A DNA stretch of 64,000 nucleotides from a virus (IMGVR_UViG_3300028558_000016:278014-342013); one strand, 5' to 3'; positions 22,727 through 59,631 are shown, counted from the first letter of the stretch. Numbers and translations are program-made. The notes: generated by a model from the letters alone, not told the origin.

Positions 22727-22740
22727 GTTAGTATATTTAC
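22727..22740 (+). promoter_or_regulatory. Promoter, gTTAGTAtATTTAC class (Bacteroidota -7 TAnnTTTG-like)
   Basis: One of six copies of the TTAGTAnATTTAC motif placed 15-45 nt upstream of a start codon; divergent region opposite the minus-strand block. Confidence 0.5.
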
Positions 22741-22762
22741 ATTGATAACAACCAACCAAAAG

Positions 22763-23296
22763 ATGAATAGAAAACACAAAAAAGGCGATGTCTTAGTTTT
22801 ATCTCCTGACGTCCAAAAAATAAGGAATGAAATCCTCGGCAAATGCGAAGATTTAAGTCCATTGGTAAACAAGATAGTTGAATTTGAAATCTACGATTCA
22901 ATTCACATCAAGAAGCAAAATGAAATTCACATGTGCCGGGTGATCGGACAAAAATTGCCTCCACGAAAAGGCGAAACACCTTTGCCAATAGACATCAGAG
23001 AATTTTTAATTCCTGAGACTGCACTAATCACCGCGAAAGATCATTTAATACACCTCACGAAAACAACAGAGCTCCAAGGCATTTACAAACATCTTATAAA
23101 GAATGCAAACAAGGATTTTGATTACTTGTTGTTTTCGCTGGAAATTTCTCAGCAAGCGCAAGGTGGCGCAAGATCTGGAATTGAAAATTGCGTAGGAAAA
23201 GAAATAGTAGAATTGTCCATGAGCATTTTTCCTAATGCAAGGCTTGGCGACATCATACCAGAAGAATATTACCAAAGATTTAATCAACCAAAATAA
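22763..23296 (+). CDS. Hypothetical protein
   Basis: The track ORF starts at TTG 22742; the first ATG (MNRKHKKG) is at 22763. Confidence 0.45.
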   Translation: MNRKHKKGDVLVLSPDVQKIRNEILGKCEDLSPLVNKIVEFEIYDSIHIKKQNEIHMCRVIGQKLPPRKGETPLPIDIREFLIPETALITAKDHLIHLTKTTELQGIYKHLIKNANKDFDYLLFSLEISQQAQGGARSGIENCVGKEIVELSMSIFPNARLGDIIPEEYYQRFNQPK

Positions 23297-23297
23297 A

Positions 23298-23474
23298 ATG
23301 GCAAAAGCAACAACAGTCGAAAATCAAAACGGAGGATTAGATCTTCTCGTTGAGAAAGATGCTGGTAATGAAATAAGAATTTCTACTGGCGACGAAAAAA
23401 ACAGTTTAAAGTTCTGGCAACACATGAAAGAATTGTGTGAAGGAGCTATTCATGAATTAAAAGACAAAGAATAA
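23298..23474 (+). CDS. Small hypothetical protein (58 aa)
   Basis: ATG at 23298 (MAKATTVENQ) directly after the upstream stop; the track ORF 23235 start overlaps the upstream gene. Confidence 0.35.
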   Translation: MAKATTVENQNGGLDLLVEKDAGNEIRISTGDEKNSLKFWQHMKELCEGAIHELKDKE

Positions 23475-23475
23475 T

Positions 23476-23838
23476 ATGACAATATATCATGGTACGGACA
23501 AAGAATCCGCAGAAAAAATACAACAGGATAAAATCCTGAAAGGCTCAGGAAGTTTTGGGCCTGGAATATGTCTCACACTCGAAAGAGCATTAAACTATTC
23601 AGCAGTCAAATGTGGAAAGCATGGTCCACAAGCAAAAAACATTGGACGAATAGTAATGATCGAAAATATTCCATCTCAAATATTGAACACCGCTTCAAAG
23701 GATGCTCCTGAAGGTTTCACTCTTAACGATGAGTTTGGAAAACCATCAAGAGGATTGCATTTACAAAAGGTGAGAATCCTATCCATCAAAGAAGCACAAT
23801 GCATGATGTCAATGGAACATGAATTTAATAGCAATTAA
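23476..23838 (+). CDS. ART-fold NAD+-binding domain protein resembling the C-lobe of Tpt1/KptA RNA 2'-phosphotransferase
   Basis: MTIYHGTDKESAEKIQQDKILKG...ICLTLE...GRIVMIE parallels the KptA segment [21 protein letters not shown]...HLS...PVILTV; no N-lobe R-H-R-R is seen. Confidence 0.3.
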   Translation: MTIYHGTDKESAEKIQQDKILKGSGSFGPGICLTLERALNYSAVKCGKHGPQAKNIGRIVMIENIPSQILNTASKDAPEGFTLNDEFGKPSRGLHLQKVRILSIKEAQCMMSMEHEFNSN

Positions 23839-23840
23839 AA

Positions 23841-24278
23841 ATGCAAAAATTTGAACGAATAGAAATTTCTGAAGAAAGAGCCAAACAGCTTGGAACAGAT
23901 GAGGTGTGGGTAAATGAAACTCATCAGGTAATTGTTTACAGAGATCCTAAAGAAGCTCCTGAGCTTCCACAAAATTCAAATCCAAAAGATTGGCCAGCGA
24001 TGATTTGGCTATCAATAAAACGTGTTGACAGGGAAGCGATGCATGATTGGAGAGAACTACAGGAAATAAAGAACATGATCGTCGGCCCAGAAAACGAAGC
24101 AGTAGAAGTTTATCCTGCTGAATCAAGATTGGTTGACACTTCAAACCAATATCACCTGTGGGTTTTTGCTGACAAGGAAGTAAGATTTCCATTTGGATTT
24201 ACTTCACGAGGTGTAGCTGATCCTGAACTTGCCGAAAAGATGGGTGCAAAACAAAGACCGTTTAATAAACATAACTAA
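23841..24278 (+). CDS. Hypothetical protein
   Basis: ORF; no motif recognised. Confidence 0.45.
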   Translation: MQKFERIEISEERAKQLGTDEVWVNETHQVIVYRDPKEAPELPQNSNPKDWPAMIWLSIKRVDREAMHDWRELQEIKNMIVGPENEAVEVYPAESRLVDTSNQYHLWVFADKEVRFPFGFTSRGVADPELAEKMGAKQRPFNKHN

Positions 24279-24855: not shown

Positions 24856-24914
24856 AGAATTCGCTATTTTTTTGTATTTTTACTTAGTATGCTTACTGAT
24901 AAAAATCCAAAATT

Positions 24915-25235
24915 ATGGCAACACTACTGAAAGAAAAAACGAGGCACGTATTCATAAGTGCAATGAATTTTGTTAGAGTTAGATTATTTGAAGGAACAGA
25001 ATTAAATACGCCTGAGAAAAAAATCAGGGATGAAAAGGAAAAGGAAAAAGCTTTAGTTCATTATGAAAAGATCATGAAGAACATTGGTACATGTCAAAAT
25101 AAATTGCAAATTGATACAGCTCATGTAATGATAGATCAATTTTATTCAAGATATGGAAGACTGTGCCATGATAAGTATTTGAACCTACAAGAGAAGATGA
25201 ATGAACGCAAAGACCAATTATGCATGTACTTTTAA
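24915..25235 (+). CDS. Hypothetical protein
   Basis: ORF; no motif recognised. Confidence 0.4.
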   Translation: MATLLKEKTRHVFISAMNFVRVRLFEGTELNTPEKKIRDEKEKEKALVHYEKIMKNIGTCQNKLQIDTAHVMIDQFYSRYGRLCHDKYLNLQEKMNERKDQLCMYF

Positions 25236-25242
25236 TGTAACT

Positions 25243-25259
25243 GCTTGATTATCAATAAG
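25243..25259. promoter_or_regulatory. Palindromic operator-like site TTGATTATCAA
   Basis: ctgcTTGATTATCAAtaag is the inverted copy of the site at 52391-52409 (18/19 identical). Confidence 0.5.
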
Positions 25260-25261: not shown

Positions 25262-25295
25262 ATATTTCCATTATTTAATGGAAATATTTTTATTT
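25262..25295 (+). terminator. Hairpin plus T-run, probable terminator of the upstream gene
   Basis: ATTTCCATTAttTAATGGAAAT perfect inverted repeat followed by atttttattt. Confidence 0.45.
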
Positions 25296-25306
25296 ATGGC
25301 TAATTA

Positions 25307-25319
25307 TTAGTAATTTTAT
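25307..25319 (+). promoter_or_regulatory. Promoter, TTAGTAATTTTAt class
   Basis: Copy of the TTAGTAnATTTAC motif about 20 nt upstream of the PARP gene start. Confidence 0.45.
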
Positions 25320-25339: not shown

Positions 25340-26788
25340 ATGGCAACAAAATCATCAACAATGTCCGGCGAGGACATTAAAAAAACAGCGATCGATAAAG
25401 GATTAAAGGTCGCAATACTCGTATGTGTGTCAGATGACAACAATAACAAGTATTTCAATATGTACGAACAAGGAGATGGAACTTACATGGTAATCCGCGG
25501 AAGAGTGGACGTTACCGAAATAATCGAAGGTCCATACCCAATGTCAAAATGGGATGTTCATTACAAGGACAAAACAAAAGCAAACAAAAAACCAAAACCT
25601 TACACTGATCAAACTCATTTGTTCTCTGAACAAAAGAAAAGCGATGGTGCAGGAAAGAAAAAAGAAAAATCATCGAACTTCCATTCAAAGAGAACTGCAA
25701 TGGTAATTGATTTCGTGAAACAACTTCAAAAATTCGCAAATCAATCGGTAGAAGAAAACTACACGGTATCAGCCGCAAACGTTACTAAGAAGCAAGTTGA
25801 TTTCGCTCAACAAACTTTAAATCAAATTAGCGACATGGTTAAGAAAGGCGCAGAGGTTGGTCCAATCAATGACAAACTAATGGAGCTTTATCAAATCATT
25901 CCTCGTCGTATGAAACATGTGAATAACCACCTCATCATTACAGATGAAATGGAAAAAACACTTGGTAAAGTTGAGAAGACCGACAAAGAAAAAATGAAAG
26001 AGGCGAAAGCTAAAACATATTCAATGAAGATTAAATCTGATGCCGAGTTACAAAAAGCGCATGACATGATTGCCGGTGAGCAAGATACTCTTGACGTTAT
26101 GGCAGGTCAGGTTGCTGTTGAAGAACAGGAAAAGAAAGATCACGTTGAAACCCCAGGTGCTAAAAAAGAATACGATTTATTGCACGCAATGAAACTTGAT
26201 ATGGAAGATTGCGATAAGTATGAAATTGCAATGCTTAAGAATATGCTTGATCAAAACGCTAAAGCCGGCCACGAAAAGAATTCAAACCTTTTCAAACGTG
26301 CATATCGCGTTAAGAACGATAGCACTGAAGTTGCTTACAACAATTTCATGGGTAAAGTTAAAAACAAGAAGAAGGAATTATTGTGGCATGGAAGTCGCAA
26401 TGAAAACTGGTGGAGCATTTTCCAACAAGGTTTAGTTCTTCGTCCTACCAATGCAGTAATCACCGGTAAGATGTTTGGTTACGGATTATATTTCGCTGAC
26501 AAGGCGCAAAAATCCATAAACTACTCTTCTTATTCTGGAGCATCACGCTCTTACACAGGGGGTTCATCAAGGAATGCAATTCTTGCGGTATATGAAGTTC
26601 ACCAAGGAGATCAATTGGTAATTAAACGTCATGAGCACTCACACTCACAATTGACTGATAAACAAATGGAAAAACACGGTAAAGATTCTGTGTTCGCTCA
26701 AGGCGGTTATGACCTTGTGAATAACGAATACATTGTGTACAAGCAACAACAATGTACTATAAAATATCTTGTTGAAATTGGGAACTAA
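25340..26788 (+). CDS. Poly(ADP-ribose) polymerase (PARP) catalytic-domain protein with N-terminal WGR-like and helical regions
   Basis: LLWHGSRNENWWSIFQQGL (H-G-S), GKMFGYGLYFADKAQKS (Tyr), and DLVNNEYIVYKQQQCTIKYLVE (catalytic Glu) align one-to-one with the PARP1 LLWHGSR/GIYFAD/LLYNEYIVYD motifs. Confidence 0.75.
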   Translation: MATKSSTMSGEDIKKTAIDKGLKVAILVCVSDDNNNKYFNMYEQGDGTYMVIRGRVDVTEIIEGPYPMSKWDVHYKDKTKANKKPKPYTDQTHLFSEQKKSDGAGKKKEKSSNFHSKRTAMVIDFVKQLQKFANQSVEENYTVSAANVTKKQVDFAQQTLNQISDMVKKGAEVGPINDKLMELYQIIPRRMKHVNNHLIITDEMEKTLGKVEKTDKEKMKEAKAKTYSMKIKSDAELQKAHDMIAGEQDTLDVMAGQVAVEEQEKKDHVETPGAKKEYDLLHAMKLDMEDCDKYEIAMLKNMLDQNAKAGHEKNSNLFKRAYRVKNDSTEVAYNNFMGKVKNKKKELLWHGSRNENWWSIFQQGLVLRPTNAVITGKMFGYGLYFADKAQKSINYSSYSGASRSYTGGSSRNAILAVYEVHQGDQLVIKRHEHSHSQLTDKQMEKHGKDSVFAQGGYDLVNNEYIVYKQQQCTIKYLVEIGN

Positions 26789-28904: not shown

Positions 28905-29280
28905 TTCCATGACTTTAAGAAGTATATAGCTTTAAATAACCAACACAGTCATGGCCAAAGCAAAAGCAGCCTCCACCAACTCAGTAAGGGCTTTAAACAG
29001 TTCAAAGAAGAACAGACCCGGAGTTCATTCCAAAAAGAAGAATTCAAGTCTTAAATCATCTAAAAACTATAAAAAGGCATATAGAGGACAGGGTAGATGA
29101 AACATTGTTTTGAGATTAGGGTATAGCTTTAGAAGGTTGCATCCAGCAAAAACAACTATCGTCTATGGCTTCGGCCTTCGATGATCCTACGACCTAAGCA
29201 ATCTGTGTTAGTTTCATTTGTTTTATTTTTATTAAAAGTGTAAGAGTCCAGGCCCCGTAAGGCCTGGATTTCTTATTTTT
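28905..29280 (+). ncRNA. Candidate structured non-coding RNA region
   Basis: About 370 nt without a credible ORF. Contains a GGCttcgGCC UUCG-tetraloop hairpin and ends in the strong hairpin TCCAGGCCccgtaaGGCCTGGA plus a U-run (29246-29275). Confidence 0.25.
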
Positions 29281-29299
29281 CTTATAAGTAGATTATTGG

Positions 29300-29307
29300 T
29301 ATATTTG
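29300..29307 (+). promoter_or_regulatory. Promoter -7 box TATATTTG (TATATTTGCA class), near-leaderless
   Basis: Exact Bacteroidota -7 consensus 7 nt upstream of the ATG at 29315. Confidence 0.45.
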
Positions 29308-29314
29308 CATTATA

Positions 29315-30472
29315 ATGCAGATACCTAAAGACATAGCAGAAATTCAACAAAAATTCATCGCCGCTGGAAAAGAAATTTTCCTCGTTGGTGGATGTGTTCG
29401 TGATTTCAAGCTTGGTCTTGAGCCCAAAGATTTGGACATGGCAACCAATGCCTTTCCAGAAGAAATTGAAACCATCCTCAAAGGAGTTGAGATGGACCTT
29501 ACAGGCAAAAGTTTTGGAGTCATGCGGGTTCGCAGTGAGTTCGATCCAAACGGATACGAAATTGCCACATACAGAGAAGATGAGAGTGCTGGAAGAAAAC
29601 CGACCGTAAAGATCGGATCAACCATGGAAAACGATGCGTGGAGAAGAGACTTCACGATCAACGCTCTTTACTATGATATTTCCAACAAGACTATAATTGA
29701 TCACACTGGCGGGCTCAATGATTTAGAAAACAAAATCATTCGTGCTTGTGGCGATCCTGCGAAAAGAATTAACGATGATGCTTTGAGAATGCTTAGGGCA
29801 GTTCGTTTCAAAAATACTATTGGTGGAACTATTGATGTTGACTTGCATAATGCAATGTTGGCCAATCCTGTTTTACAAGGTCCAGACAAAGATGGAAATA
29901 TAGTACCAATATCACAGGAGAGAATAGCTGAGGAATTCCTTAAAGGTCTTTCCAAAAGCTACAACATGGATCTCGTTGACCAATATGTGAAAGATTTAAT
30001 GACATACCAATTTCTTGGACAAGTGTTCAGAGGACTTCACGTAAATGATAATTTTACATGCAACTCAAGAAAGCCTGAGATAATGATTGCGGATCTTTTA
30101 CGTTTTAATACGAATCACAAGGATTTATTTAATAAGCTTGTTTATGATTGCAAATTCAGTATTGATATTGCCGAAGGAGTTATTTTTCTTTTGAGCCTTG
30201 AAGATATTGATGAGGACAAAGTGTACAAGCTAAGAAAAAGAATGGACAGCAAAACCAAATTAAATAAGGATGATCTTATTATTTATTCAGGTTTAATGGT
30301 AGAGAATGGAATGATTGGAAGAGTTGCTTATGTACATGCATTCACTAAATATTCCATAACAACAAGCGGAGATGAATTAAAAGAAAAGGAAGGATTTGTT
30401 GATGGAGCAGAACTTGGAGCAGAGATAGCAAAAAGAGAGAAAAACAATTTTTTAAAAATATTTACACAATGA
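29315..30472 (+). CDS. cca: tRNA nucleotidyltransferase (CCA-adding enzyme / poly(A) polymerase head-domain family)
   Basis: FLVGGCVRDFKLGLEPKDLDMAT (GGxVRD...DxD) and RRDFTINALYYD motifs of class II CCA enzymes. Confidence 0.75.
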   Translation: MQIPKDIAEIQQKFIAAGKEIFLVGGCVRDFKLGLEPKDLDMATNAFPEEIETILKGVEMDLTGKSFGVMRVRSEFDPNGYEIATYREDESAGRKPTVKIGSTMENDAWRRDFTINALYYDISNKTIIDHTGGLNDLENKIIRACGDPAKRINDDALRMLRAVRFKNTIGGTIDVDLHNAMLANPVLQGPDKDGNIVPISQERIAEEFLKGLSKSYNMDLVDQYVKDLMTYQFLGQVFRGLHVNDNFTCNSRKPEIMIADLLRFNTNHKDLFNKLVYDCKFSIDIAEGVIFLLSLEDIDEDKVYKLRKRMDSKTKLNKDDLIIYSGLMVENGMIGRVAYVHAFTKYSITTSGDELKEKEGFVDGAELGAEIAKREKNNFLKIFTQ

Positions 30473-31161
30473 ACGAATCAAAAGACTTAAAAAGTTTAAT
30501 AGCATCCTTGCAGGAAGGAAGCGAGTTTTGTGATTTCATGATAACAAAGCTTCTTCACATGGATGGGTCCACCGATGCCGATCTTAAAAAAGATTACAGA
30601 AAACTCTTTAAAGAAGGAGGAGCTGATGCTTTTAAAGATGACATGAAAAATGGAAAGAAATTAAAGTATACAGAAGAAGAGCTTGAAATGATCGAGGAAA
30701 AAATAAATGAAATTTTTCCAGAAGGTCATGAGCCACTCACAACAACAATGATACCATTCGGTTTTTATCTTGGACAATTATTAAGAAAGAAGATACCAGG
30801 TGCTGAATGGAAAGTGACAGATGAGGTTAACAAGAAAAACAGTATATGGGATGTCTTTATTGAATTTAAAAATTCTGACGGATATACCATGCAGGCTAAA
30901 CCGTTCATGCGCGTTGATAAATTTTGGAGAAGGAGAGAAGATAAGATGTCAGCATTCGTTAAGATGATTGAAATGACATCTGAAATTAAAATGGATCCTG
31001 AGTATTGGAATAAACGCGCAGATGATGAAGGTTGGATTGAAACCGCTAACGAAATGTCGTTCAGGGTTTTTCAAGGAAGCAAGAAAGATAAAATAGATGG
31101 AGATTTCTCTAAAGCAAAGGGAATGTTTCATAACGGAAAATTTGGAGATGGAAAATATTAA
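30469..31161 (+). CDS. Hypothetical protein
   Basis: ORF with ATGA junction; no motif recognised. Confidence 0.45.
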   Translation: MNESKDLKSLIASLQEGSEFCDFMITKLLHMDGSTDADLKKDYRKLFKEGGADAFKDDMKNGKKLKYTEEELEMIEEKINEIFPEGHEPLTTTMIPFGFYLGQLLRKKIPGAEWKVTDEVNKKNSIWDVFIEFKNSDGYTMQAKPFMRVDKFWRRREDKMSAFVKMIEMTSEIKMDPEYWNKRADDEGWIETANEMSFRVFQGSKKDKIDGDFSKAKGMFHNGKFGDGKY

Positions 31162-32488
31162 TAAAATAAAAGACATACACTCGAGTGATGCCTATGGAAT
31201 TCTGGTAGAGACTGGATGTGGTCTTGCGGTATCTAATGAATTGCTTGAAGTCAGCGGTGCATCTAATACGGTTTATTTTGCTGAATGTCCATACAGCAAG
31301 GAATATCAAACATTCAAGTATGGCGAAACCAATGCGAGAGCGGTTTCAATGGAAAACATAAAGCACATAATGAATTATCATAAAGCTTTAGATAAACCAG
31401 AAAACGTTAACTTCATTTATGCTTCATCCTTTCAAGTAGGAGAACACAACGATAAATCAACTCATGGATGGATAGGTCTTTCATTAAAAGAAGATGACAG
31501 ACGTTATTTCCACATCTCAATACATGAGTCATTAACACGAAAACAATACATCGATAAAATATCTAAGATAGGAATTGACATTTTACATTTTTACATAAAC
31601 AAATCAACTGGTACAAATTTCATACCGAGCAATTGTTGCATTGACATAGTACTTAATGGAAAAGGTGAACAGGTCAATTTAACTGATATGTTTGTTTCTC
31701 TTAGATATGAAGACGATGAAAACTTCTTATGCTTCAAAGAAGGAAAATTAGTTAGAATGGAAGATCTTTTCAGAGATCAAAAGAACATAGTATTATTCAA
31801 GGGAAGCTTTAATCCAATCCATGCCGCTCACATACACACTGCACAATTAGCAAAGGATGAATATGGAATTGAACCTGTGTTTGTTATTAGTTCTTCAGTG
31901 TATCAAAAAGGATGGATAGAACCTGAGGATCTTAAGAACCGAGTGGAAACATTAAACGAACTTGGCTATCCTGTTATAATAACTAAAGATGGTTACTTTA
32001 ACAAGAACACGTCCTATATTAGACGTAAATTCAAACAACCTTTGATATACGTAGTTGGTTCGGATACATTAAACAGAATATTGGAAAGCTCATATAACAT
32101 TTTAAATCCAGAACTTAGCGAGAGATATAATCATTACGTCAATCAATTGATTTCCATGAAGCCTGAGAATGAACTGATAACAGACGAAGAATTGGATGAA
32201 ATAGAAAAAATGGCATTACAACATTATTTAAGAAGATTCAAAGAGGATTTCAAAGATGTAAAATTCTTCGTTGTAAATAGACCAGGGAGCGAATTGCACG
32301 AAGATGCAAAACGAATAGAAGAATTTTATTCAATGGTTGAAGAACATCCTGAGTATTTCCATATAAGCTCAACTAAAATTCGTGCCATGCTTATAGCTGG
32401 AGATTATGAGACAATTAAAAAATTGATACCAGAAAAAATATTTGAAAAGTATATTAACCAAAAAACAAACAACCATGTCAACAACTAA
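31148..32488 (+). CDS. Fusion of a CinA/PncC-like (NMN deamidase-like) domain and NMN/NaMN adenylyltransferase
   Basis: N-terminal domain VETGCGLAVSNELLEVSGASNTVYFAECPYSKEYQ parallels the PncC segment [35 protein letters not shown]. C-terminal domain GSFNPIHAAH is the (H/T)xGH nucleotidyltransferase motif. Confidence 0.55.
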   Translation: MENINKIKDIHSSDAYGILVETGCGLAVSNELLEVSGASNTVYFAECPYSKEYQTFKYGETNARAVSMENIKHIMNYHKALDKPENVNFIYASSFQVGEHNDKSTHGWIGLSLKEDDRRYFHISIHESLTRKQYIDKISKIGIDILHFYINKSTGTNFIPSNCCIDIVLNGKGEQVNLTDMFVSLRYEDDENFLCFKEGKLVRMEDLFRDQKNIVLFKGSFNPIHAAHIHTAQLAKDEYGIEPVFVISSSVYQKGWIEPEDLKNRVETLNELGYPVIITKDGYFNKNTSYIRRKFKQPLIYVVGSDTLNRILESSYNILNPELSERYNHYVNQLISMKPENELITDEELDEIEKMALQHYLRRFKEDFKDVKFFVVNRPGSELHEDAKRIEEFYSMVEEHPEYFHISSTKIRAMLIAGDYETIKKLIPEKIFEKYINQKTNNHVNN

Positions 32489-42195: not shown

Positions 42196-42220
42196 ATTTT
42201 TTAGTTTCAGAAATAGTTCC

Positions 42221-42228
42221 TATATTTG
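42221..42228 (+). promoter_or_regulatory. Promoter -7 box TATATTTG (TATATTTGCACTGAT, identical 15-mer to the site at 60345)
   Basis: Exact 15-nt repeat of the Smr-gene promoter; no ORF follows. Confidence 0.45.
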
Positions 42229-42235
42229 CACTGAT

Positions 42236-42826: not shown

Positions 42827-42836
42827 CAAATAAAAT

Positions 42837-42920: not shown

Positions 42921-42926
42921 GCAATT

Positions 42927-43014: not shown

Positions 43015-43025
43015 CAGAAAATTCT

Positions 43026-43108: not shown

Positions 43109-43115
43109 CATAAAT

Positions 43116-43197: not shown

Positions 43198-43213
43198 CAA
43201 GAAGAAGAATAAA

Positions 43214-45308: not shown

Positions 45309-45380
45309 GTGGCTGAAAGGACCGGTCTCGAAAACCGGCACACCCAAAAGGTGTCGTGAGTTCGAATCTCACCTCCTCTG
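45295..45380 (+). tRNA. tRNA-Ser (anticodon CGA), class II
   Basis: AGAGGAG acceptor (A1-U72), D-arm CCT/GAGTGGCTGAA/AGG, anticodon loop CTCGAAA, long variable arm, discriminator G; overlaps the last 14 nt of the ligase ORF. Confidence 0.75.
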
Positions 45381-45419
45381 CATTTTTTAATTTGATGATT
45401 TTTTTGTAAATTCACTATC

Positions 45420-46432: not shown

Positions 46433-46436
46433 TAAT

Positions 46437-46518
46437 GCCCAGGTGTTGGAATTGGTAGACAAGCACGGTTGAGGGCCGTGTGCAGTAATGCGTAGGGGTT
46501 CGAGTCCCCTTCTGGGTA
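46437..46518 (+). tRNA. tRNA-Leu (anticodon GAG), class II
   Basis: GCCCAGG acceptor, anticodon stem CACGG/CCGTG with loop TTGAGGG, long variable arm; the next ORF starts 2 nt after its 3' end. Confidence 0.75.
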
Positions 46519-46519
46519 C

Positions 46520-47765: not shown

Positions 47766-47920
47766 CGCACGACGAAGATTGCCCTAATTGTGGTGAGCTT
47801 GTTGAAGTAGAGATTTGGGAAGAGGGAGAATGCCCGAGATGTTCTTCCCGCTATTGGTGGGAAGAAATATTTGATGAAGATGATTACGAGACAACAGATC
47901 CTATTTTAGTTTGGGAATAA
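47762..47920 (+). CDS. Small zinc-ribbon protein (52 aa)
   Basis: MTHDEDCPNCGELV...ECPRCSS; ATGA overlap with the upstream gene; not in the ORF track (under 60 aa). Confidence 0.4.
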   Translation: MTHDEDCPNCGELVEVEIWEEGECPRCSSRYWWEEIFDEDDYETTDPILVWE

Positions 47921-47965
47921 TATTGATTTTTTTTACTATATTAGCTAATAATCAACTGAAAACCC

Positions 47966-48448: not shown

Positions 48449-48481
48449 AATCTTTTTAATTTTAATTGATTTTTAGTATAT

Positions 48482-49225
48482 TTGTTCTCTGTGATAGAGA
48501 TAAAATGTATATTAAAATACGATCCTGTTCCATTATCTGGAAAAGCAGAAACCATGTGCAAACCTTGGTGGATGATCGCAACATGCGAAGGAGATCTCAC
48601 TGAATATTATGCATGGCTTCTTAAAAAACGAACAGGATTAATTCTCCAACGCCCTGCATGGGGCGCACATATCTCAGTCATAAGAGGAGAAGAACCACCC
48701 AACAAAGAATTATGGAAAAAATACCAGGACAAAGAAGTCACTTTGCTCTATGATCCAAACGTCAGAACAAATGGAGATCATTGGTGGATGAGAGTCCATT
48801 GCAACGAACTTCTTGACATAAGAGAAGAATTAGGTCTTCCAAGATTTGGAGCATTAACTTTACACCTCACGTTAGGAAGACCAATCCCAAGACACGAAGA
48901 AGCATCAGATTATTTCCATACAGTTTTTAAATCATTCGCTCCATCGGCGCCAATAAGACCATACATGACACAAGAAGAAGCTTTAAAGAATTTGTCTTTG
49001 CCTCCAATGGAAGTAAAGCATAAAGAATTAAAAACACCTGAACATTCAGACTCTATGTTCAGAAAGGAATGTCCAAACTGTGAGACTGGATTATTGATGA
49101 TGAAAAGAAATCAGTCAACGCTCGCTCTTGAAAAAGATGATAATTGCACTTATTGTGGAAGACGATTCACTTACACTGACATAAAAGAAAACTCAGTAAT
49201 ATTAGAATATAATGAAAAAGCTTGA
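48482..49225 (+). CDS. 2H-superfamily phosphoesterase (LigT/CPDase-like) with C-terminal zinc ribbon
   Basis: Two H-x-(S/T) motifs (AHISVIRG and LHLTLGRP) plus C-terminal CPNC...CTYCG. Confidence 0.5.
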   Translation: MFSVIEIKCILKYDPVPLSGKAETMCKPWWMIATCEGDLTEYYAWLLKKRTGLILQRPAWGAHISVIRGEEPPNKELWKKYQDKEVTLLYDPNVRTNGDHWWMRVHCNELLDIREELGLPRFGALTLHLTLGRPIPRHEEASDYFHTVFKSFAPSAPIRPYMTQEEALKNLSLPPMEVKHKELKTPEHSDSMFRKECPNCETGLLMMKRNQSTLALEKDDNCTYCGRRFTYTDIKENSVILEYNEKA

Positions 49226-52266: not shown

Positions 52267-52339
52267 GGAAAATAAACCTTTATTTTATATATTCAAAATG
52301 ATTTTATTGATTATATGTATTATTTCCAAGACGTTGTAA

Positions 52340-52360
52340 CTTATTGATAATCAATAGATT
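52340..52360. promoter_or_regulatory. Palindromic operator-like site TTGATAATCAA
   Basis: tgtaacttattgataatcaatagatt shares 22 nt with the site at 22674. Confidence 0.5.
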
Positions 52361-52390: not shown

Positions 52391-52409
52391 CCTATTGATA
52401 ATCAAGCAG
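52391..52409. promoter_or_regulatory. Palindromic operator-like site TTGATAATCAA
   Basis: cctattgataatcaagcag is the inverted copy of the site at 25243. Confidence 0.5.
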
Positions 52410-52461
52410 TTACAAAATTGTTATTAAATATTGATGAAATTATTTTTCCATGTCACAAATA

Positions 52462-52475
52462 GTTAGTAAATTTAC
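52462..52475 (+). promoter_or_regulatory. Promoter, gTTAGTAaATTTAC class
   Basis: Motif copy 45 nt upstream of ATG 52520. Confidence 0.5.
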
Positions 52476-52519: not shown

Positions 52520-53167
52520 ATGTCAACAACTAAAAAACCAGGAGCCGGATTATTAGGCTTAGCGAAAAAAACAGTAAAAACAACTGCTGCTAAAAAAGAC
52601 AACAAAGAAGTAATTACAGTTTCGGATAAAACCGTTTCTGATGCAATTGACACTTATATTAAAAACAAAAAGATCGCCGACGAAGCTGCCGCTGCAATGG
52701 CTGCCGCTTCTGAAATCGTGAAAAGCGAAGGTGGTAAAAAAATCTTCATCGAAGAAATGGAGAAAACCGGTCGCTCAAAAGAATCATTCATTCTTGCCAG
52801 CCAAAATGGAAACAGCTTAATGTATGTTGTTACCGACGCTTACAAACGCGCAAACTTGGATGAAGAACGTGTTGAGTACTTACGCAAAATGTTTGGCGAA
52901 GAAATCATCACAGACAAAAACGAATTCATCGTTAATCCTGAATTAATCGATGAGCATGGTGAAACACTTTGCGAATTAATTAAAAATTGTCCTAAGTTTA
53001 CCGATGAGGTTAAAGAAAGCCTTATCCAATTGAAACAATCGTTCACAATTGCAAAAGGAACTAAAGATAAAATGCGCGACATCGCAAAAGCTTCCAATAC
53101 AACTGTTGAAACAGTGTTTGAAGAAGTTCAACCAACATGTCAAGTGAAAGTTCGCGGTTCAAAATAA
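52520..53167 (+). CDS. Hypothetical protein with basic Lys/Ala-rich N-terminus
   Basis: ORF; N-terminal KKPGAGLLGLAKKTVKTTAAKK. Confidence 0.45.
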   Translation: MSTTKKPGAGLLGLAKKTVKTTAAKKDNKEVITVSDKTVSDAIDTYIKNKKIADEAAAAMAAASEIVKSEGGKKIFIEEMEKTGRSKESFILASQNGNSLMYVVTDAYKRANLDEERVEYLRKMFGEEIITDKNEFIVNPELIDEHGETLCELIKNCPKFTDEVKESLIQLKQSFTIAKGTKDKMRDIAKASNTTVETVFEEVQPTCQVKVRGSK

Positions 53168-53751: not shown

Positions 53752-53826
53752 ATCCGTAGTATGGTGCGTGGGGGAAAGCCCCCGACTCGTGTTATCATTT
53801 TCACGGTTTGAAACATACGGATAGTA

Positions 53827-53856
53827 AAACGGCCTCAATGAGGCCGTTTTTATTTT
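53827..53856 (+). terminator. Rho-independent terminator
   Basis: ACGGCCTCaatGAGGCCGTttttatttt. Confidence 0.7.
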
Positions 53857-53869
53857 ACATGAAAAGTTA
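53856..53869 (+). promoter_or_regulatory. Promoter, gTTAGTAcATTTAC class
   Basis: Motif copy 32 nt upstream of ATG 53901, directly after the terminator. Confidence 0.5.
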
Positions 53870-53900
53870 GTACATTTACCTGAAATCAAAAGATAACAAA

Positions 53901-55060: not shown

Positions 55061-55327
55061 ATGAACAAATGCTTATGTGATGGAAAAGGATGGATTAGAA
55101 TGCCTGGAACAAAGGCCCTGATTTATTGCCCTGACTGTGAAAAGCCAAGGATCCTCAAAAGAATGATAAAATCTGGAACCAAGATAGTAAGCCCTGTGTT
55201 TGGTACAGGAGAAGTGGTGGAAGATGGAAAGGCGGCAAAAAAGACCATAAAAGTGAGGTTTTCCAAGCAGGATAAAGATATTGACCTGGATAGGACAGAG
55301 GTGGCCTACGTCTATGACCAGGCTTGA
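55061..55327 (+). CDS. Small zinc-finger protein
   Basis: CLCDGKG...CPDCEKP cysteine pairs. Confidence 0.4.
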   Translation: MNKCLCDGKGWIRMPGTKALIYCPDCEKPRILKRMIKSGTKIVSPVFGTGEVVEDGKAAKKTIKVRFSKQDKDIDLDRTEVAYVYDQA

Positions 55328-55356
55328 CTTCCGGGCATTTTTTTATGTGGATAAAA

Positions 55357-55370
55357 GTTAGTATATTTGT
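55357..55370 (+). promoter_or_regulatory. Promoter, gTTAGTATATTTGt class (exact TAnnTTTG)
   Basis: Motif copy 20 nt upstream of ATG 55390. Confidence 0.5.
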
Positions 55371-55389: not shown

Positions 55390-56070
55390 ATGATACAGTA
55401 TAATGAGTTCAGATACATTTTTCCACCACGTGCGGAAAATGCTCTTTCACCTGATGCGTTGAAAGATTACGATAACGGAAAATATATTGCCCAACCAAAA
55501 CTTGATGGCGATTGCATGTTGATATTCACAAATGGAATAGAGACACGCATTATGGATCGTCACAAAAAAGAATTCTTGAAGAACATCAAGATGACTCCAA
55601 CACTTCAAAAGCTTCACAGAGAAACTGACAATGGAACAAAAAATAAATGGATGATCCTTGTTGGTGAGCACATGATCAAATCAAAAAAGAATGCCGAAGG
55701 TAAAACATGGAATGAGAAGTATGTTATTTTTGACATCATTGCTTTTGATGGAATTCAGTTAGTAGGCAAAACATTTCAGGAGAGACAAGAACTTCTCGAT
55801 AAGCTTTTTGGAAAAGAAGAAGTTGCATTGACAAAAACTGGAACATATAAGGATAAATTCCTTTATGCAACGGAAATTGAAGACGTGTTTCGCGTTAAAT
55901 CATTCCGTGATTGTTTTTCTGCTCTTTGGAGCGATTTGACAAAGATTGACATGTACGAAGGTCTCGTTATAAAAAGAGCCGATGCAAAACTTGAAAATGG
56001 AAGCACACAAAAGAACAACATAAATTCACAATTAAAATTCAGAAAGGCCACTTTAAATTATCCACATTAA
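55390..56070 (+). CDS. Minimal ATP-dependent polynucleotide ligase (nucleotidyltransferase domain only)
   Basis: Motif I AQPKLDGDCML (KxDG) and motif IV YEGLVIKRADAK. Confidence 0.5.
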   Translation: MIQYNEFRYIFPPRAENALSPDALKDYDNGKYIAQPKLDGDCMLIFTNGIETRIMDRHKKEFLKNIKMTPTLQKLHRETDNGTKNKWMILVGEHMIKSKKNAEGKTWNEKYVIFDIIAFDGIQLVGKTFQERQELLDKLFGKEEVALTKTGTYKDKFLYATEIEDVFRVKSFRDCFSALWSDLTKIDMYEGLVIKRADAKLENGSTQKNNINSQLKFRKATLNYPH

Positions 56071-57840: not shown

Positions 57841-58160
57841 TGGAAAGAATAATAATACCAGAAAAAGATTTCAACAAGCTTACAAAAGATGAGCTCATGA
57901 ATTGTTTTGCATTAGTAACACATGATGGCTCAGACCAATATGTTTCAGGATGGAAAGTAATCATTGATGATTGCATGCAAGAAGCACGTGAAACAAAATC
58001 TAACGCAGAAGCCACAAAATTTATAGCTGCTCGAACAAATTTACAGTTGCTTGATAAGTACTATGAGCAAAATTCAGATCTTAATGGAAATAATCACGAA
58101 TTGTTATTGGCCAAAATAATTAAAGGAATTCCTAAACTGTACGTAATACAAATCGACTAA
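57840..58160 (+). CDS. Hypothetical protein
   Basis: ATGA junction. Confidence 0.4.
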   Translation: MERIIIPEKDFNKLTKDELMNCFALVTHDGSDQYVSGWKVIIDDCMQEARETKSNAEATKFIAARTNLQLLDKYYEQNSDLNGNNHELLLAKIIKGIPKLYVIQID

Positions 58161-59246
58161 ATGAAAATAGAAGCCGGAAGTAAAGCAAAAATCTATTGCC
58201 TATCTGACAAACCAGAAGGTGAAATAATTTCAGTGACGGACACCACAGCAGTAATTAAGATTGACCGTGGAGTTCTAACTGTTGACATGGATGACATCGT
58301 GGAAGGCGATGAATTCCTAAAAGTATTAAACTACAGATCCATAGAGGAAGAAAAGAATGAGCCTGAACCTAACAGTCCAGAAAAATTCGCAGATGACATG
58401 ATGGCAACTGTACAAGCCTTGAAGGAAGATGACAAAGACATTTATAAGTTGTTCATGCACTTCATAAGAACTTCTGACACTGTAAAGAAAGATGGAATAA
58501 TATTTCCTCTGCCATGCATATTTGAAATGCCATCAGGAAAAACCCTCGAAGGACTCGAAGATAAAATTAACACAAAGGCCACGATCGCGATGGCTGGATT
58601 GGCTTTACCTGTTCCACAGGTTTATGCTTCTGCTTCAGGCATAATTAAAAAGGAAAATCCGAAGGAAATAATATTTGCCACATTCATTGAAAATAAATTG
58701 TCTGAAGGAAAAATAGATCCAAAATATTACAGAGTTCTTTGCATATTCAGGATGAAAAGAAATAAGTGGATGTATGGCGTCATGGGATATAACACAAAAG
58801 AAGATCTCGTAAATCAAGAGCCTGATTGGAAGAACGAAGCATGGATCGAAAAGATGAAAGCTCTTCTTGGTTCAGGTGGTGCAATTCCTATTCCAGAAAA
58901 AGTTGGAACTGCGTATGGCAACAAGATCGACATAAAGATTTGGAGAGAGAACAGCCAAGGTTATTTTTATGAAGGAGATGTCGTTCTGGAAAAGCTCGAT
59001 AAGAAGACTCAGAAGTATGTAAAGGAAAATAACCTCGATCTTAAATTCAGTGATCCGGATAACAGAACTAAGATAATGGATTTCTTCAAGAGCAAAGACA
59101 TGACACTTGATTTCATGGACACTGGGACTGGTTCATTCGTTAACCTTATGGTATCAAACAAAGGATTCATGTTCATGGACAGAAGAAGTAAAACAAGAGC
59201 AATCCTCGAAGCAATAGAAGCAGTAGCAAACGAAAAGAAAAAGTAA
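58161..59246 (+). CDS. Hypothetical protein (361 aa)
   Basis: ORF; no motif recognised. Confidence 0.45.
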   Translation: MKIEAGSKAKIYCLSDKPEGEIISVTDTTAVIKIDRGVLTVDMDDIVEGDEFLKVLNYRSIEEEKNEPEPNSPEKFADDMMATVQALKEDDKDIYKLFMHFIRTSDTVKKDGIIFPLPCIFEMPSGKTLEGLEDKINTKATIAMAGLALPVPQVYASASGIIKKENPKEIIFATFIENKLSEGKIDPKYYRVLCIFRMKRNKWMYGVMGYNTKEDLVNQEPDWKNEAWIEKMKALLGSGGAIPIPEKVGTAYGNKIDIKIWRENSQGYFYEGDVVLEKLDKKTQKYVKENNLDLKFSDPDNRTKIMDFFKSKDMTLDFMDTGTGSFVNLMVSNKGFMFMDRRSKTRAILEAIEAVANEKKK

Positions 59247-59247
59247 T

Positions 59248-59562
59248 ATGAAAACAATAGTAGTAAAAGTTGAAGTAAAAACCGACAGGGTACAGGACTT
59301 CATAGATGCAACAATTGAAAGTCAAACAGCAACAACAAAAGAACCTCGTTGTTTGTCTTACACAATTTTGCAAGACGAAAAAGAGAAACACAAATTCACT
59401 TTGGTGGAAACTTACAAGAACGATGCGGCCATAGAAGAACACAAGGCAACACCTCATTTTTTAAAGTGGAGAGAAGTGGTTCAGGAAATGATGGCATGTC
59501 CGAGAGTGAGTTCTAAACACGATTTCATTGATTGGAAGAACAGCTCAGTAGAAACACTGTAA
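59248..59562 (+). CDS. ABM-domain (antibiotic biosynthesis monooxygenase-like) protein
   Basis: CLSYTILQDE...YKNDAAIEEHKATPHFLKW follows the ABM/Dabb pattern. Confidence 0.45.
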   Translation: MKTIVVKVEVKTDRVQDFIDATIESQTATTKEPRCLSYTILQDEKEKHKFTLVETYKNDAAIEEHKATPHFLKWREVVQEMMACPRVSSKHDFIDWKNSSVETL

Positions 59563-59563
59563 C

Positions 59564-59583
59564 TTGTTGATTATCAATAGATT
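59564..59583. promoter_or_regulatory. Palindromic operator-like site TTGATTATCAA
   Basis: cttgTTGATTATCAAtagatt, about 40 bp upstream of the promoter box. Confidence 0.5.
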
Positions 59584-59617
59584 AGAATTGAATAAGCATT
59601 TTTAAATGTGATGGAAA

Positions 59618-59631
59618 TTTAGTAATTTTAC
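59618..59631 (+). promoter_or_regulatory. Promoter, TTTAGTAATTTTAC class
   Basis: Motif copy 25 nt upstream of ATG 59656. Confidence 0.5.

What the first reader, a model, noticed from the sequence alone, without database searches (positions are those of the whole stretch)
22727..59631. Phage-specific promoter consensus gTTAGTAnATTTAC built on the Bacteroidota -7 element
Seen in sequence: six copies at 22727, 25307, 52462, 53856, 55357 and 59618. Each lies 15-45 nt upstream of a start codon, and each follows an intergenic gap or terminator.

Established knowledge: Bacteroidota sigma-A promoters use a -7 TAnnTTTG box instead of TATAAT.

Inference: the host is a Bacteroidota member. The invariant TTAG extension upstream of the -7 box may mark a phage-modified or alternative sigma specificity.
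Basis: partly seen in the sequence, partly recalled or inferred. Interest (0 to 1): 0.5.

Follow-up and report, generated by a model that had tools for sequence, protein, structure and literature searches.

The report
Host-type promoter family in huge phage
The repeated TTAGTAnATTTAC box is real and is the downstream half of at least 13 two-part promoters of the Bacteroidota type in a roughly 482-kb phage, so it is an ordinary though unusually uniform phage promoter family, and nothing found here points to a new sigma specificity.

Summary
Five of the six coordinates are right; 53856 should be 53867. The exact 13-mer occurs 3 times against 0.02 expected.

The full motif is bipartite: aTTTTT (-36 to -32), a 19-nt gap, then TTAG (-16 to -13) abutting TAnATTT[A/G]C (-12 to -4). 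A matrix scan finds 12 sites scoring 23-38 bits; the next best scores 10.5. One further site has a shifted T-run. All 13 are intergenic and point at the next gene. Several abut terminator hairpins.

The layout matches the Bacteroidota primary-sigma promoter (TTG, 17-23 nt, TAnnTTTG). Shine-Dalgarno sequences are depleted, which supports a Bacteroidota host.

T-run, TTAG and the -7 box are 88-94% invariant across orthologous promoters of sister phages; flanks are 23-33%. TTAG is lineage-typical, not invariant (8 of 13), and rare in other phage promoters. The full motif also precedes ordinary chromosomal genes (SOD, Clp, peroxiredoxin) in Bacteroidota. Cultured Bacteroidota phages each carry their own -16 to -13 style. 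No sigma or RNA polymerase gene lies in the window.

Best reading: early/middle promoters read by host RNA polymerase. This is a new member of a known kind, of modest interest.

The parts
22708..22740 (+). Promoter: TTTTT, 15 nt, TTAG TATATTTA C. Predicted start about 22744-22745. Serves the ORF with ATG at 22763 (177 aa). The rightward half of a divergent control region.
   Evidence: Matrix score 36.1. Exact 13-mer. Anatomy. Orthologous sites keep TTAG in L256 and L257.
25287..25319 (+). Promoter: TTTTT, 15 nt, TTAG TAATTTTA T. Serves the PARP-like gene 25340-26788. An AT-rich hairpin (25263-25286) abuts the T-run.
   Evidence: Score 33.3. Box end to ATG is 21 nt and the hairpin folds at -8.5 kcal/mol. 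PARP domain.
29276..29308 (+). Promoter of the TTTGCA sub-type: TTTTT, 15 nt, TTGG TATATTTG C. The ATG of the CCA-adding-enzyme-like gene (29315) is only 7 nt after the box, so the mRNA is near leaderless. It follows a strong hairpin at about 29247-29268.
   Evidence: Score 29.8. Hairpin -20.1 kcal/mol. PolyA_pol head domain. Orthologues: TTGG...TTTGCT in L256 and TTAG...TTTGTT in L257.
42197..42229 (+). Promoter of the TTTGCA sub-type: TTTTT, 15 nt, TTCC TATATTTG C. Lies about 350 nt upstream of the Leu/Ser tRNA array.
   Evidence: Score 32.0. tRNAs.
45383..45415 (+). Promoter: TTTTT, 15 nt, TTTG TAAATTCA C. Lies directly after tRNA-Ser(CGA). The ATG at 45420 is 5 nt after the box, so the predicted mRNA is leaderless. 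Serves a 101-aa ORF and the Sir2-like gene.
   Evidence: Score 31.8. Anatomy. SIR2 domain.
47904..47936 (+). Weak or possible promoter: TTTTA, 15 nt, TGAT TTTTTTTA C. Upstream of ORF 47966-48448.
   Evidence: Score 23.0, the lowest of the set. It lacks a proper TA at -12/-11.
48453..48485 (+). Promoter: TTTTT, 15 nt, TTAG TATATTTG T. Upstream of the 2H-phosphoesterase-like ORF.
   Evidence: Score 32.3..
52443..52475 (+). Promoter: TTTTT, 15 nt, TTAG TAAATTTA C. Serves ORF 52520-53167. The rightward half of a divergent region that carries two operator-like palindromes.
   Evidence: Score 37.6. Exact 13-mer. Orthologues in L003 and L004.
53847..53879 (+). The T-run doubles as the U-tract of terminator hairpin 53826-53850. 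Serves the DUF3846 ORF at 53901.
   Evidence: Score 33.8. Terminator. Hairpin -12.4 kcal/mol. Orthologues.
55338..55370 (+). Promoter: TTTTT, 15 nt, TTAG TATATTTG T. Lies after hairpin 55322-55336. Serves the ligase/capping-enzyme-like gene 55390-56070.
   Evidence: Score 37.7.. Orthologues.
59599..59631 (+). Promoter: TTTTT, 15 nt, TTAG TAATTTTA C. Serves ORF 59656-60270, upstream of the flap endonuclease gene.
   Evidence: Score 36.6. Orthologues in L003, L004 and L250.
20559..20591 (-). Minus-strand promoter of the GCA sub-type: TTTTT, 15 nt, ATCC TATATTCG C. Serves ORF 20286-20531.
   Evidence: Score 28.9. Identical ATCC TATATTCGCA orthologue in L256.
20230..20262 (-). Minus-strand promoter: TTAG TATATTTG T with the T-run shifted by 1 nt. 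Lies directly after hairpin 20262-20277. Serves ORF 19897-20214.
   Evidence: hairpin -7.4 kcal/mol; box end to ATG 16 nt.
60345..60352 (+). Generic -7 box TATATTTG (then CA), with no T-run and no TTAG. Lies directly after terminator 60313-60340, 5 nt before the ATG at 60358. It shows that plain host-type boxes also occur in this genome.
22672..22693 (+). Operator-like element TGTAACTnnTTGAWTATCAATA with palindromic core TTGAT-n-ATCAA. Further copies at 25236-25257 (+), 52335-52356 (+), 52393-52414 (-) and 59558-59579 (+). They lie 35-110 nt upstream of four of the promoters.
   Evidence: Five copies against 0.04 expected. The core gives 7 matches against 0.88 expected. Conserved next to orthologous promoters in L003, L004, L256 and L257. 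TTGATTAT is the most enriched intergenic 8-mer.

Best explanation
These are the early or middle promoters of a huge phage (about 482 kb) that infects a Bacteroidota host. They are read by the host RNA polymerase carrying its primary sigma factor (the sigma-ABfr type).

Anatomy (shown): a T-run at -36 to -32 occupies the place of the '-33 TTTG' element. A 19-nt spacer follows. TAnATTT[A/G] at -12 to -5 is the '-7' box. The conserved TTAG at -16 to -13 sits immediately upstream of that box.

Mechanism (inferred):
- Transcription should start 4-5 nt after the box. This gives short, A-rich leaders without a Shine-Dalgarno sequence, of about 12-65 nt, and three near-leaderless mRNAs.
- TTAG acts as an upstream extension of the -7 box. 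It is the lineage-fixed form of a weaker general T-16 T-15 n G-13 preference seen in strong phage promoters of these hosts.
- It is most needed when the 3' end of the box departs from the optimal TTTGCA.
- In several sites the T-run also serves as the U-tract of the preceding intrinsic terminator, which makes compact terminator-promoter modules.

Not shown: the start sites, the dependence on host sigma, and the contact made by TTAG.
For: Architecture.
- Positions -36 to -33 are T in 12 of 12 sites. T-12, T-8 and T-7 are 12 of 12 and A-11 is 11 of 12. Position -5 is A in 7 and G in 5. C-4 is 9 of 12.
- The spacing fits TTG, 17-23 nt, TANNTTTG and the -12 to -5 register of the box.

Position.
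- All 13 sites are intergenic and co-oriented with the next gene. Box end to ATG is 5-69 nt.
- TATATTTG is the second most enriched intergenic 8-mer.

Host type.
- Shine-Dalgarno-like 4-mers occur before 4 of 97 genes, against 11.7 +/- 3.0 at random positions. A is 60% at -3, as described for Flavobacterium johnsoniae.

Selection.
- Across orthologous promoters of sister phages (flap endonuclease about 71-73% identical), the fraction of invariant columns is: T-run 0.90, TTAG 0.94, -7 box 0.88, spacer 0.58, flanks 0.23-0.33.
- More orthologues are given.

Shared machinery.
- The same bipartite layout occurs 2-6 times per locus in many IMG/VR phage contigs. Of 117 such loci, 106 share no protein with the window.
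- It occurs in Cellulophaga phage phi38:1.
- Host-RNAP-dependent, rifampicin-sensitive, primer-extension-mapped middle promoters of Cellulophaga phage phi14:2 carry the same TAnnTTTG(TA) box with TTG at -33.

No phage factor needed for the sequence as such.
- TTTTT-N15-TTAGTATATTTAC lies 14-35 nt upstream of SOD, Clp, peroxiredoxin, GT2, MarR, radical-SAM and rhodanese genes in Bacteroidota chromosomes. Several are conserved between species.
- Promoter context was found in 16 of 40 Bacteroidota hits against 9 of 80 hits elsewhere (Fisher p = 6e-4).

Other points.
- Cultured Bacteroidota phages have their own conserved 4-mer at -16 to -13: TCCT in B124-14 and GTTG/TTTG in phage 11b.
- No sigma or RNAP domain was found in the window genes scanned or in the Pfam marks on related loci.
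Against: - No 5' ends or expression data exist, so promoter function is inferred.
- G at -5 is described as nearly invariant in F. johnsoniae promoters, yet 7 of 13 sites have A there.
- The -33 position is T, not G.
- TTAG is absent from unselected chromosomal candidate promoters (0 of 44) and rare in other phages (0 of 73, 3 of 181, 1 of 43). Yet it is kept in this lineage, even in a relative with 51% G+C (L258). That pattern would also fit a lineage-encoded recognition factor.
- Only 64 kb of about 482 kb was examined for sigma or RNAP genes.
- The precise host is unknown, so the host's own promoter preferences could not be measured.
Confidence: 0.66

Rival explanations
1. The sites are promoters read by host core RNA polymerase, but only with a lineage-encoded specificity factor. 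Candidates are a phage sigma, a sigma appropriator or activator in the manner of T4 AsiA/MotA, or covalent modification of RNAP, for instance by the PARP-like enzyme encoded behind one of the sites. That factor would read TTAG and/or the T-run.
For: - TTAG is as conserved as the core across orthologues (0.94).
- It is almost absent from other phages and from unselected chromosomal promoters.
- It persists in a more distant relative with 51% G+C, which may infect a different host.
- Two sub-classes coexist in the window: TTAG with TTTAC or TTTGT in 8 sites, and no TTAG with TT[T/C]GCA in 4 sites. These could be two temporal classes.
- A conserved palindromic operator accompanies four TTAG promoters.
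- A Fis-type HTH protein is encoded at 12300-12731.
Against: - The full motif works as a promoter-position sequence before housekeeping genes in uninfected Bacteroidota chromosomes.
- TTAG is missing from 5 of 13 otherwise equivalent sites.
- Phage-specific 4-mers at -16 to -13 are common in small cultured Bacteroidota phages.
- No sigma, anti-sigma or RNAP domain was detected in the window.
Confidence: 0.2
2. The motif is the promoter of a phage-encoded RNA polymerase that is independent of host sigma, as in phiKZ-like jumbo phages. Their early promoter TATATTAC resembles TATATTTAC.
For: - The genome is huge (about 482 kb), and many jumbo phages carry their own RNAPs (own knowledge).
- There is a superficial resemblance to the phiKZ early consensus (own knowledge).
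Against: - The element is bipartite, with the 19-nt spacing and TA/TTT core typical of Bacteroidota sigma-A.
- The same layout occurs in unrelated phage contigs of 5-100 kb and in bacterial chromosomes.
- No RNAP subunit domains appear in the window or in about 150 kb of related loci.
Confidence: 0.05
3. The repeats are not primarily promoters. They would be recombination or mobility cassettes, or binding sites for a replication, packaging or nucleoid protein, that merely resemble the -7 box.
For: - Terminator-plus-motif modules recall the promoter-stem-loop cassettes that mediate gene shuffling in T4-type phages (own knowledge).
- Gene content between the conserved sites differs among relatives.
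Against: - Strict co-orientation with downstream genes, and fixed short distances to start codons.
- A bipartite layout with sigma-A spacing.
- No extended sequence similarity beyond -38 and -3 among the copies.
- A recombination role would add to promoter function rather than replace it.
Confidence: 0.05

Closest known systems
Bacteroidota primary-sigma (sigma-ABfr) promoters: -33 TTTG/TTG, 17-23 nt, -7 TAnnTTTG (Bayley 2000; Chen 2007; Baez 2019, PMC6847099)
   Same: - TA at -12/-11 and TTT at -8 to -6.
- A T-rich -33 region with a 19-nt gap.
- AT-rich spacer, short A-rich leaders without Shine-Dalgarno sequences, and genes starting 5-70 nt downstream.
   Different: - G-33 is replaced by T, giving an invariant T5 run.
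- G-5 is replaced by A in 7 of 13 sites and is followed by C-4.
- An extra conserved TTAG lies at -16 to -13, which is not seen in 44 unselected chromosomal candidates.
- Information content is much higher than in host promoters.
Middle promoters of Cellulophaga crAss-like phage phi14:2, a tripartite motif read by host RNAP (bioRxiv 10.1101/2020.03.07.982082)
   Same: - A phage promoter family built on TAnnTTTG(TA), with an upstream -33 block and an A/T tract.
- Some start codons lie only 3-6 nt after the box.
- It also precedes tRNA genes.
   Different: - phi14:2 has TTG(A/C) at -35 to -33 and ATAT at -16 to -13, with no TTAG and no T5 run.
- Its start sites and rifampicin sensitivity were measured; here nothing was measured.
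Bacteroides fragilis phage B124-14 promoter family, the source of the strong 'phage promoter' P_BfP1E6 used in Bacteroides engineering (Whitaker 2017; cited from PMC11554821 and own knowledge)
   Same: Several near-identical promoters in one phage. Each has a phage-typical 4-mer at -16 to -13 directly before TAnnTTTGCA, plus a conserved -33 block.
   Different: - The 4-mer is TCCT and the -33 block is (G)ATTGCA.
- The host is Bacteroides.
- The Whitaker paper itself could not be read here.
T4 early promoters and promoter-stem-loop cassettes of T4-type phages (own knowledge)
   Same: - Many near-identical promoters, richer than the host consensus, read by unmodified host RNAP.
- They are spread through regions of small early genes and often sit next to stem-loops.
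   Different: - A different sigma type and a different consensus.
- No evidence here for early timing or for cassette-mediated recombination.
phiKZ-type early promoters (TATATTAC) read by a virion RNA polymerase (own knowledge)
   Same: An AT-rich conserved block close to the start site in a very large phage.
   Different: - The present motif is bipartite with sigma-A spacing.
- It occurs in small unrelated phages and in bacterial chromosomes.
- No RNAP genes were seen.

Membership tests
Bacteroidota sigma-ABfr (-33/-7) promoter | -7 box TAnnTTTG (TAHHTTTG) at -12 to -5 | tested here: inconclusive
   TA and TTT are essentially invariant, and no G occurs at -10/-9. The last base is G in 6 of 13 sites and A in 7. 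Published host sets report G-5 as nearly invariant. However, TTTAC boxes stand in promoter position before chromosomal Bacteroidota genes.
Bacteroidota sigma-ABfr (-33/-7) promoter | -33 element TTTG/TTG placed 17-23 nt upstream of the -7 box | tested here: inconclusive
   An invariant T-run at -36 to -32 sits exactly 19 nt from the box in 12 sites and 18 nt in one. The G is missing. The -33 element is weak or undetectable in host data sets as well.
Bacteroidota sigma-ABfr (-33/-7) promoter | Transcription starts 4-5 nt downstream of the box | not testable with these tools
   No transcript data are available. Predicted start positions are listed.
Bacteroidota sigma-ABfr (-33/-7) promoter | Recognition by host RNAP with the primary sigma factor | not testable with these tools
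   Support is indirect only: shared use by unrelated phages and chromosomal occurrences.
Bacteroidota sigma-ABfr (-33/-7) promoter | Genomic context typical of the phylum: no Shine-Dalgarno sequence, A-rich leaders | tested here: met
   Shine-Dalgarno-like motifs occur before 4 of 97 genes, against 11.7 +/- 3.0 expected. A is 60% at -3 and 66% at -11.
Phage-specific sigma or appropriator-dependent promoter class (T4 middle/late type) | A phage-encoded sigma, anti-sigma or activator gene | tested here: inconclusive
   No such Pfam domain occurs in the 40 window proteins scanned or among the precomputed Pfam marks of related loci. Only about 13% of the genome was seen, and novel factors would escape Pfam.
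Phage-specific sigma or appropriator-dependent promoter class (T4 middle/late type) | The motif is absent from host promoters | tested here: not met
   The exact 33-nt pattern lies 14-35 nt upstream of housekeeping genes in several Bacteroidota families.
Phage RNAP promoter (phiKZ-like) | A single conserved block at the start site with no -35-like partner, plus phage multisubunit RNAP genes | tested here: not met
   The motif is bipartite with fixed 19-nt spacing. No RNAP domains were found (and the locus tables).

The most novel reading that the evidence does not exclude
TTAG at -16 to -13, together with the invariant T5 run, is a lineage-specific recognition code. It is read by host RNA polymerase only after the phage reprograms it, through a phage-encoded sigma-like or appropriator protein or through ADP-ribosylation by the PARP-like enzyme. 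This would define a temporal class separate from the plain TTTGCA promoters in the same genome. The conserved palindrome TTGAT-n-ATCAA upstream would act as its switch.
Probability: 0.13. Interest if true: 0.6.

Novelty: new member of a known kind. Interest (0 to 1): 0.3.

Why it matters
- It assigns an uncultured phage of about 482 kb to a Bacteroidota-type host from cis signals alone.
- It gives a ready map of 13 transcription units covering tRNA repair and replacement genes, NAD-metabolism genes and replication genes.
- It adds strong, compact terminator-promoter modules that could serve as expression parts for Bacteroidota.
- The comparison shows that phages of this phylum each keep a 'house style' at -16 to -13 on a common sigma-A core, with a weak general T-T-n-G trend. 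This hints at an unrecognised upstream extension of the -7 element, which is cheap to test by mutagenesis.
- It does not, as it stands, reveal a new transcription mechanism.

Tried and rejected
- Megablast of 24 kb against cultured phages found no match.
- Single-protein searches of IMG/VR for relatives of the flap endonuclease and the ligase-like protein found nothing. Relatives were reached instead through protein homologues and their contigs.
- The motif is absent from the more distant relatives L006, L008, L249 and L251, from Tenacibaculum phage PTm1 and from huge-phage record LR756500. It is therefore not a general jumbo-phage signal.
- The standard sigma-70 promoter scan is uninformative: 73 hits against 61 +/- 8 expected.
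Two thirds of its hits were single chance matches in AT-rich non-Bacteroidota genomes. It gives only a roughly 3-fold taxon enrichment, so context analysis was needed.
- tRNA genes are not the usual downstream target of the chromosomal hits.
- Rfam finds only tRNAs in the window.
- I considered that ATGTCAA in the spacer, the reverse complement of TTGACAT, marks an opposite-strand sigma-70 promoter. I rejected this because no -10 partner exists and all genes lie downstream in the given orientation.
- I considered that the palindromic element is a leftward promoter. I rejected this because two of the five copies would drive antisense transcription.
- I considered that TTAG supplies stop codons for upstream ORFs. 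I rejected this because the upstream ORFs end well before it.
- The Whitaker 2017 paper on Bacteroides phage promoters is not held.
- The exact host could not be identified.

Full report
**What is in the sequence**

The 13-mer TTAGTANATTTAC occurs exactly three times, at 22728, 52463 and 53867, all on the + strand. Only 0.02 matches are expected. With up to two mismatches it occurs 21 times, against 9.0 +/- 3.3 expected.

Site '53856' is about 11 nt too far left; the box begins at 53867.

An invariant TTTTT lies exactly 15 nt upstream. A position weight matrix covering both halves, refined iteratively, recovers 12 sites with scores of 23.0-37.7 bits. The next-best position in 128 kb of both strands scores 10.5. 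Random first-order Markov sequences reach 11.0 on average, with a maximum of 14.9. A thirteenth site on the minus strand (TTAG TATATTTG at 20242) has its T-run shifted by one base.

Numbered by the Bacteroidota convention, in which the box spans -12 to -5, the consensus is: a(-37) TTTTT(-36 to -32), 15 nt, TTAG(-16 to -13), TAnATTT[A/G](-12 to -5), C(-4). Over all 13 sites:
- TTAG is present in 8; the rest are TTGG, TTTG, TTCC, ATCC and TGAT.
- Position -5 is A in 7 sites and G in 6.

**Context**

All 13 sites lie between genes and point toward the next gene. No site lies in the structural-gene block at 1-11.7 kb.

The genes served include:
- a PARP-like protein, a CCA-adding-enzyme-like protein, a Sir2 protein, a 2H-phosphoesterase-like protein and a ligase/capping-like protein;
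- the operon leading to a flap endonuclease;
- an array of tRNA genes.

These are early/middle-type functions.

Hairpins directly abut the T-run at 25307, 29296, 53867, 55358 and 20242(-). There the T-run can double as a terminator U-tract. At the divergent regions 22728 and 52463 there is no hairpin, yet the T-run is still present. It is therefore a promoter element in its own right.

An unbiased count of 8-mers enriched in intergenic DNA gives TTGATTAT first and the -7 box TATATTTG second.

**Fit to the Bacteroidota promoter**

Published work gives the following:
- The primary-sigma consensus is -33 TTTG/TTG and -7 TAnnTTTG, with 17-23 nt between them.
- The box sits at -12 to -5.
- G is excluded at -10/-9, and starts lie 4-5 nt after the box.
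- The spacer is AT-rich, and the -33 element is often weak.

The phage motif matches the TA, the TTT, the exclusion of G at -10/-9 and the 19-nt gap. It departs at -33 (T for G) and at -5 (A in about half the sites).

The genome also shows the translation signature of the phylum. Shine-Dalgarno-like 4-mers precede only 4 of 97 ATG genes, against 11.7 +/- 3.0 at random positions. Leaders are A-rich and G-poor, with A at 60% at -3 (compare).

The closest bacterial homologues that carry a name for the PARP-like protein come from Bacteroidota. The host-phylum inference is therefore supported. The class within the phylum remains unknown. Chlorobiota, which share a related sigma, are not formally excluded.

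**Source and relatives**

An identical PARP-like protein sits on a contig of 482,156 bp. The flap endonuclease sits on contigs in the 0.2-1 Mb size class. The window is therefore part of a huge phage.

Homologues of the flap endonuclease and the PARP-like protein led to syntenic contigs of sister phages. In those with 70-80% protein identity, the motif stands at the orthologous intergenic positions. Over four orthologous promoter sets, the fraction of invariant columns is:
- T-run 0.90
- TTAG 0.94
- -7 box 0.88
- spacer 0.58
- flanks 0.23-0.33

This is a clear footprint of purifying selection on all three blocks.

Two TTAG TATATTTG promoters are present even in L258, which has 55% PARP identity and 51% G+C. 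More distant relatives (L006, L008, L249, L251), Tenacibaculum phage PTm1 and huge-phage record LR756500 lack the motif.

**Is it phage-specific?**

Many of these contigs (26-41% G+C, 5-400 kb) contain 2-6 sites with a common and even richer consensus: (A/T)ATTTTTTTAT(G/T)TCAA..ATT.TT..TATATTTAC(A/T). Of the 117 loci, 106 share no detectable protein with the window. Unrelated phages thus use the same promoter layout, which points to a shared reader, namely the host enzyme.

Cellulophaga phage phi38:1 carries two such sites. The middle promoters of Cellulophaga phage phi14:2 have the same box with TTG at -33. Those promoters were mapped by primer extension and shown to depend on rifampicin-sensitive host RNAP.

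Forty of them (33%) are Bacteroidota; I estimate that phylum at roughly a tenth of the species in the collection, from my own knowledge. The other hits are single chance matches in AT-rich genomes.
- In Bacteroidota, 16 of 40 hits are intergenic with a gene start 13-60 nt downstream, and 8 of 40 lie inside ORFs.
- Elsewhere the figures are 9 of 80 and 33 of 80 (Fisher p = 6e-4).
- The downstream genes are ordinary chromosomal genes: superoxide dismutase, a Clp ATPase, a peroxiredoxin, a family-2 glycosyltransferase, a MarR regulator, a radical-SAM enzyme and a rhodanese protein.
- Several sites are conserved among three or four species of Rikenellaceae, Chitinophagaceae or Flavobacterium.

The complete motif, TTAG included, is therefore compatible with promoter use in uninfected cells.

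**How special is TTAG?**

TTAG is rare outside this lineage:
- Chromosomal candidate promoters taken without regard to the extension: 0 of 44. Only T-16 (59%) stands out there.
- Other phage contigs, excluding the sites that were searched for: 1 of 43, 0 of 73 and 3 of 181.

Those other phage sites do show a general trend. T-16 and T-15 are 65-74%, and G-13 is 25-44% against an 11-12% background (p = 7e-4 and 1e-7).

Cultured Bacteroidota phages each have their own recurring 4-mer on the same core:
- TCCT in Bacteroides phage B124-14 (4 of 10 sites)
- GTTG or TTTG in Flavobacterium phage 11b (7 of 10 sites)
- GTTG in phi38:1
- ATAT in phi14:2

TTAG is thus the house style of this lineage. It conforms to the general T-T-n-G trend and is not a unique mark.

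Within the window there is a suggestive dependency:
- The eight TTAG sites end in TTTAC, TTTAT or TTTGT.
- The four strong sites without TTAG (29296, 42217, 20571 and the plain box at 60345) all end in TT[T/C]GCA. By my own count this split has a 1 in 495 chance.
- The orthologue of the 29296 promoter switches from TTGG...TTTGC to TTAG...TTTGT in L257.

This fits compensation by an upstream extension, much as an extended -10 compensates for a weak hexamer in E. coli. It would equally fit two regulatory classes. The sample is small.

**Factors**

No sigma, anti-sigma or RNA polymerase domain was found among 40 window proteins scanned against Pfam. None appears in the precomputed Pfam marks of about 150 kb of related loci. 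This covers only a small part of the genome and cannot detect novel factors.

A second cis element, TGTAACTnnTTGAWTATCAATA with palindromic core TTGAT-n-ATCAA, occurs five times against 0.04 expected. The copies lie 35-110 nt upstream of four TTAG promoters. The element is conserved beside the orthologous promoters of sister phages. It looks like an operator for a dimeric regulator. A Fis-type HTH protein is encoded at 12300-12731.

**Verdict**

The promoter and host inferences are supported by indirect but convergent evidence.

The suggestion of an altered sigma specificity is not supported. The simplest account is a family of strong host-sigma-A promoters with a lineage-typical upstream extension (confidence about 0.66). 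A phage-factor-dependent class remains possible (about 0.2).

This is a new member of a known kind: phage promoter families built on the Bacteroidota -33/-7 architecture, as in phi14:2 and B124-14. Interest is modest. The most useful by-products are:
- the transcription-unit map;
- the hint of a general T-T-n-G extension of the -7 box;
- the operator-like palindrome.

Noticed in passing
window 42576-46519 (tRNAs); 43214-44677; 12728-13069 (-): There are eight tRNA genes, and all are class II tRNAs with a long variable arm. Four are Leu (anticodons TAG, TAA, CAA, GAG) and four are Ser (GGA, TGA, GCT, CGA). They sit next to a 487-aa leucyl-tRNA-synthetase-like ORF. A tRNA-binding-domain ORF is encoded elsewhere in the window. 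One IMG/VR contig (L086) encodes a LeuRS-like protein 59% identical to the window's.
   Followed up: partly
window 18773-19903 (-), 29315-30472, 48482-49225, 49588-50535, 55390-56070: A set that looks like tRNA/RNA repair: an RlaP-family nucleotidyltransferase, a CCA-adding-enzyme-like protein, a 2H-phosphoesterase-like protein, a polynucleotide kinase/phosphatase and a ligase/capping-enzyme-like protein. Together with the tRNA array this suggests a counter-measure against host anticodon nucleases.
   Followed up: partly
window 25340-26788, 31097-32488, 34288-36081, 45722-46432: An NAD-related module: a PARP-like ADP-ribosyltransferase, an NMN-adenylyltransferase-like protein, nicotinamide phosphoribosyltransferase and a Sir2 protein. 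A NUDIX gene lies in the syntenic position in relatives. The module is syntenic in sister phages (L256-L258).
   Followed up: partly
window 22672-22693, 25236-25257, 52335-52356, 52393-52414 (-), 59558-59579: An operator-like element TGTAACTnnTTGAWTATCAATA (palindromic core TTGAT-n-ATCAA) occurs 5 times against 0.04 expected, upstream of four of the promoters. It is conserved in sister phages, and similar palindromes occur in a few unrelated IMG/VR contigs (for example three copies in L099).
   Followed up: partly
window 1287-6950: Three consecutive large ORFs (463, 745 and 674 aa) consist mostly of collagen-like G-x-x triplets, such as [11 protein letters not shown]. They are presumably fibre proteins. 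Similar collagen-marked ORFs of about 975 aa lie downstream of the flap endonuclease in the window phage and its relatives (L001, L003, L004).
   Followed up: no
window 29308-29315, 45415-45420, 60352-60358: At three promoters the start codon lies only 5-7 nt after the -7 box, which predicts leaderless or near-leaderless mRNAs. The mapped phi14:2 middle promoters show the same arrangement.
   Followed up: partly
IMG/VR loci L012-L128, for example L101, L075, L041, L015: Many unrelated AT-rich phage contigs share a strikingly uniform promoter consensus: (A/T)ATTTTTTTAT(G/T)TCAA..ATT.TT..TATATTTAC(A/T). It occurs 2-6 times per roughly 10 kb. The spacer block ATGTCAA is also partly present in the window's sites. 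I did not find this described in the papers searched.
   Followed up: partly
window 12300-12731 (-): A 143-aa protein has a C-terminal Fis-type HTH_8 domain (E = 2e-11). It is a candidate DNA-binding regulator within the leftward gene block.
   Followed up: no
L258 (relative, 55% PARP identity): This syntenic relative has 51% G+C, against 36% for the window. It still carries TTAG TATATTTG boxes at two promoters, though with degenerate T-runs. Its base composition is so different that a different host seems possible.
   Followed up: no
window 24871-24896: Two overlapping box-like sequences (TTTG TATTTTTA C followed by TTAG TATGCTTA C) lie upstream of ORF 24915-25235 without a correctly spaced T-run. 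This may be a decayed or weak promoter.
   Followed up: no
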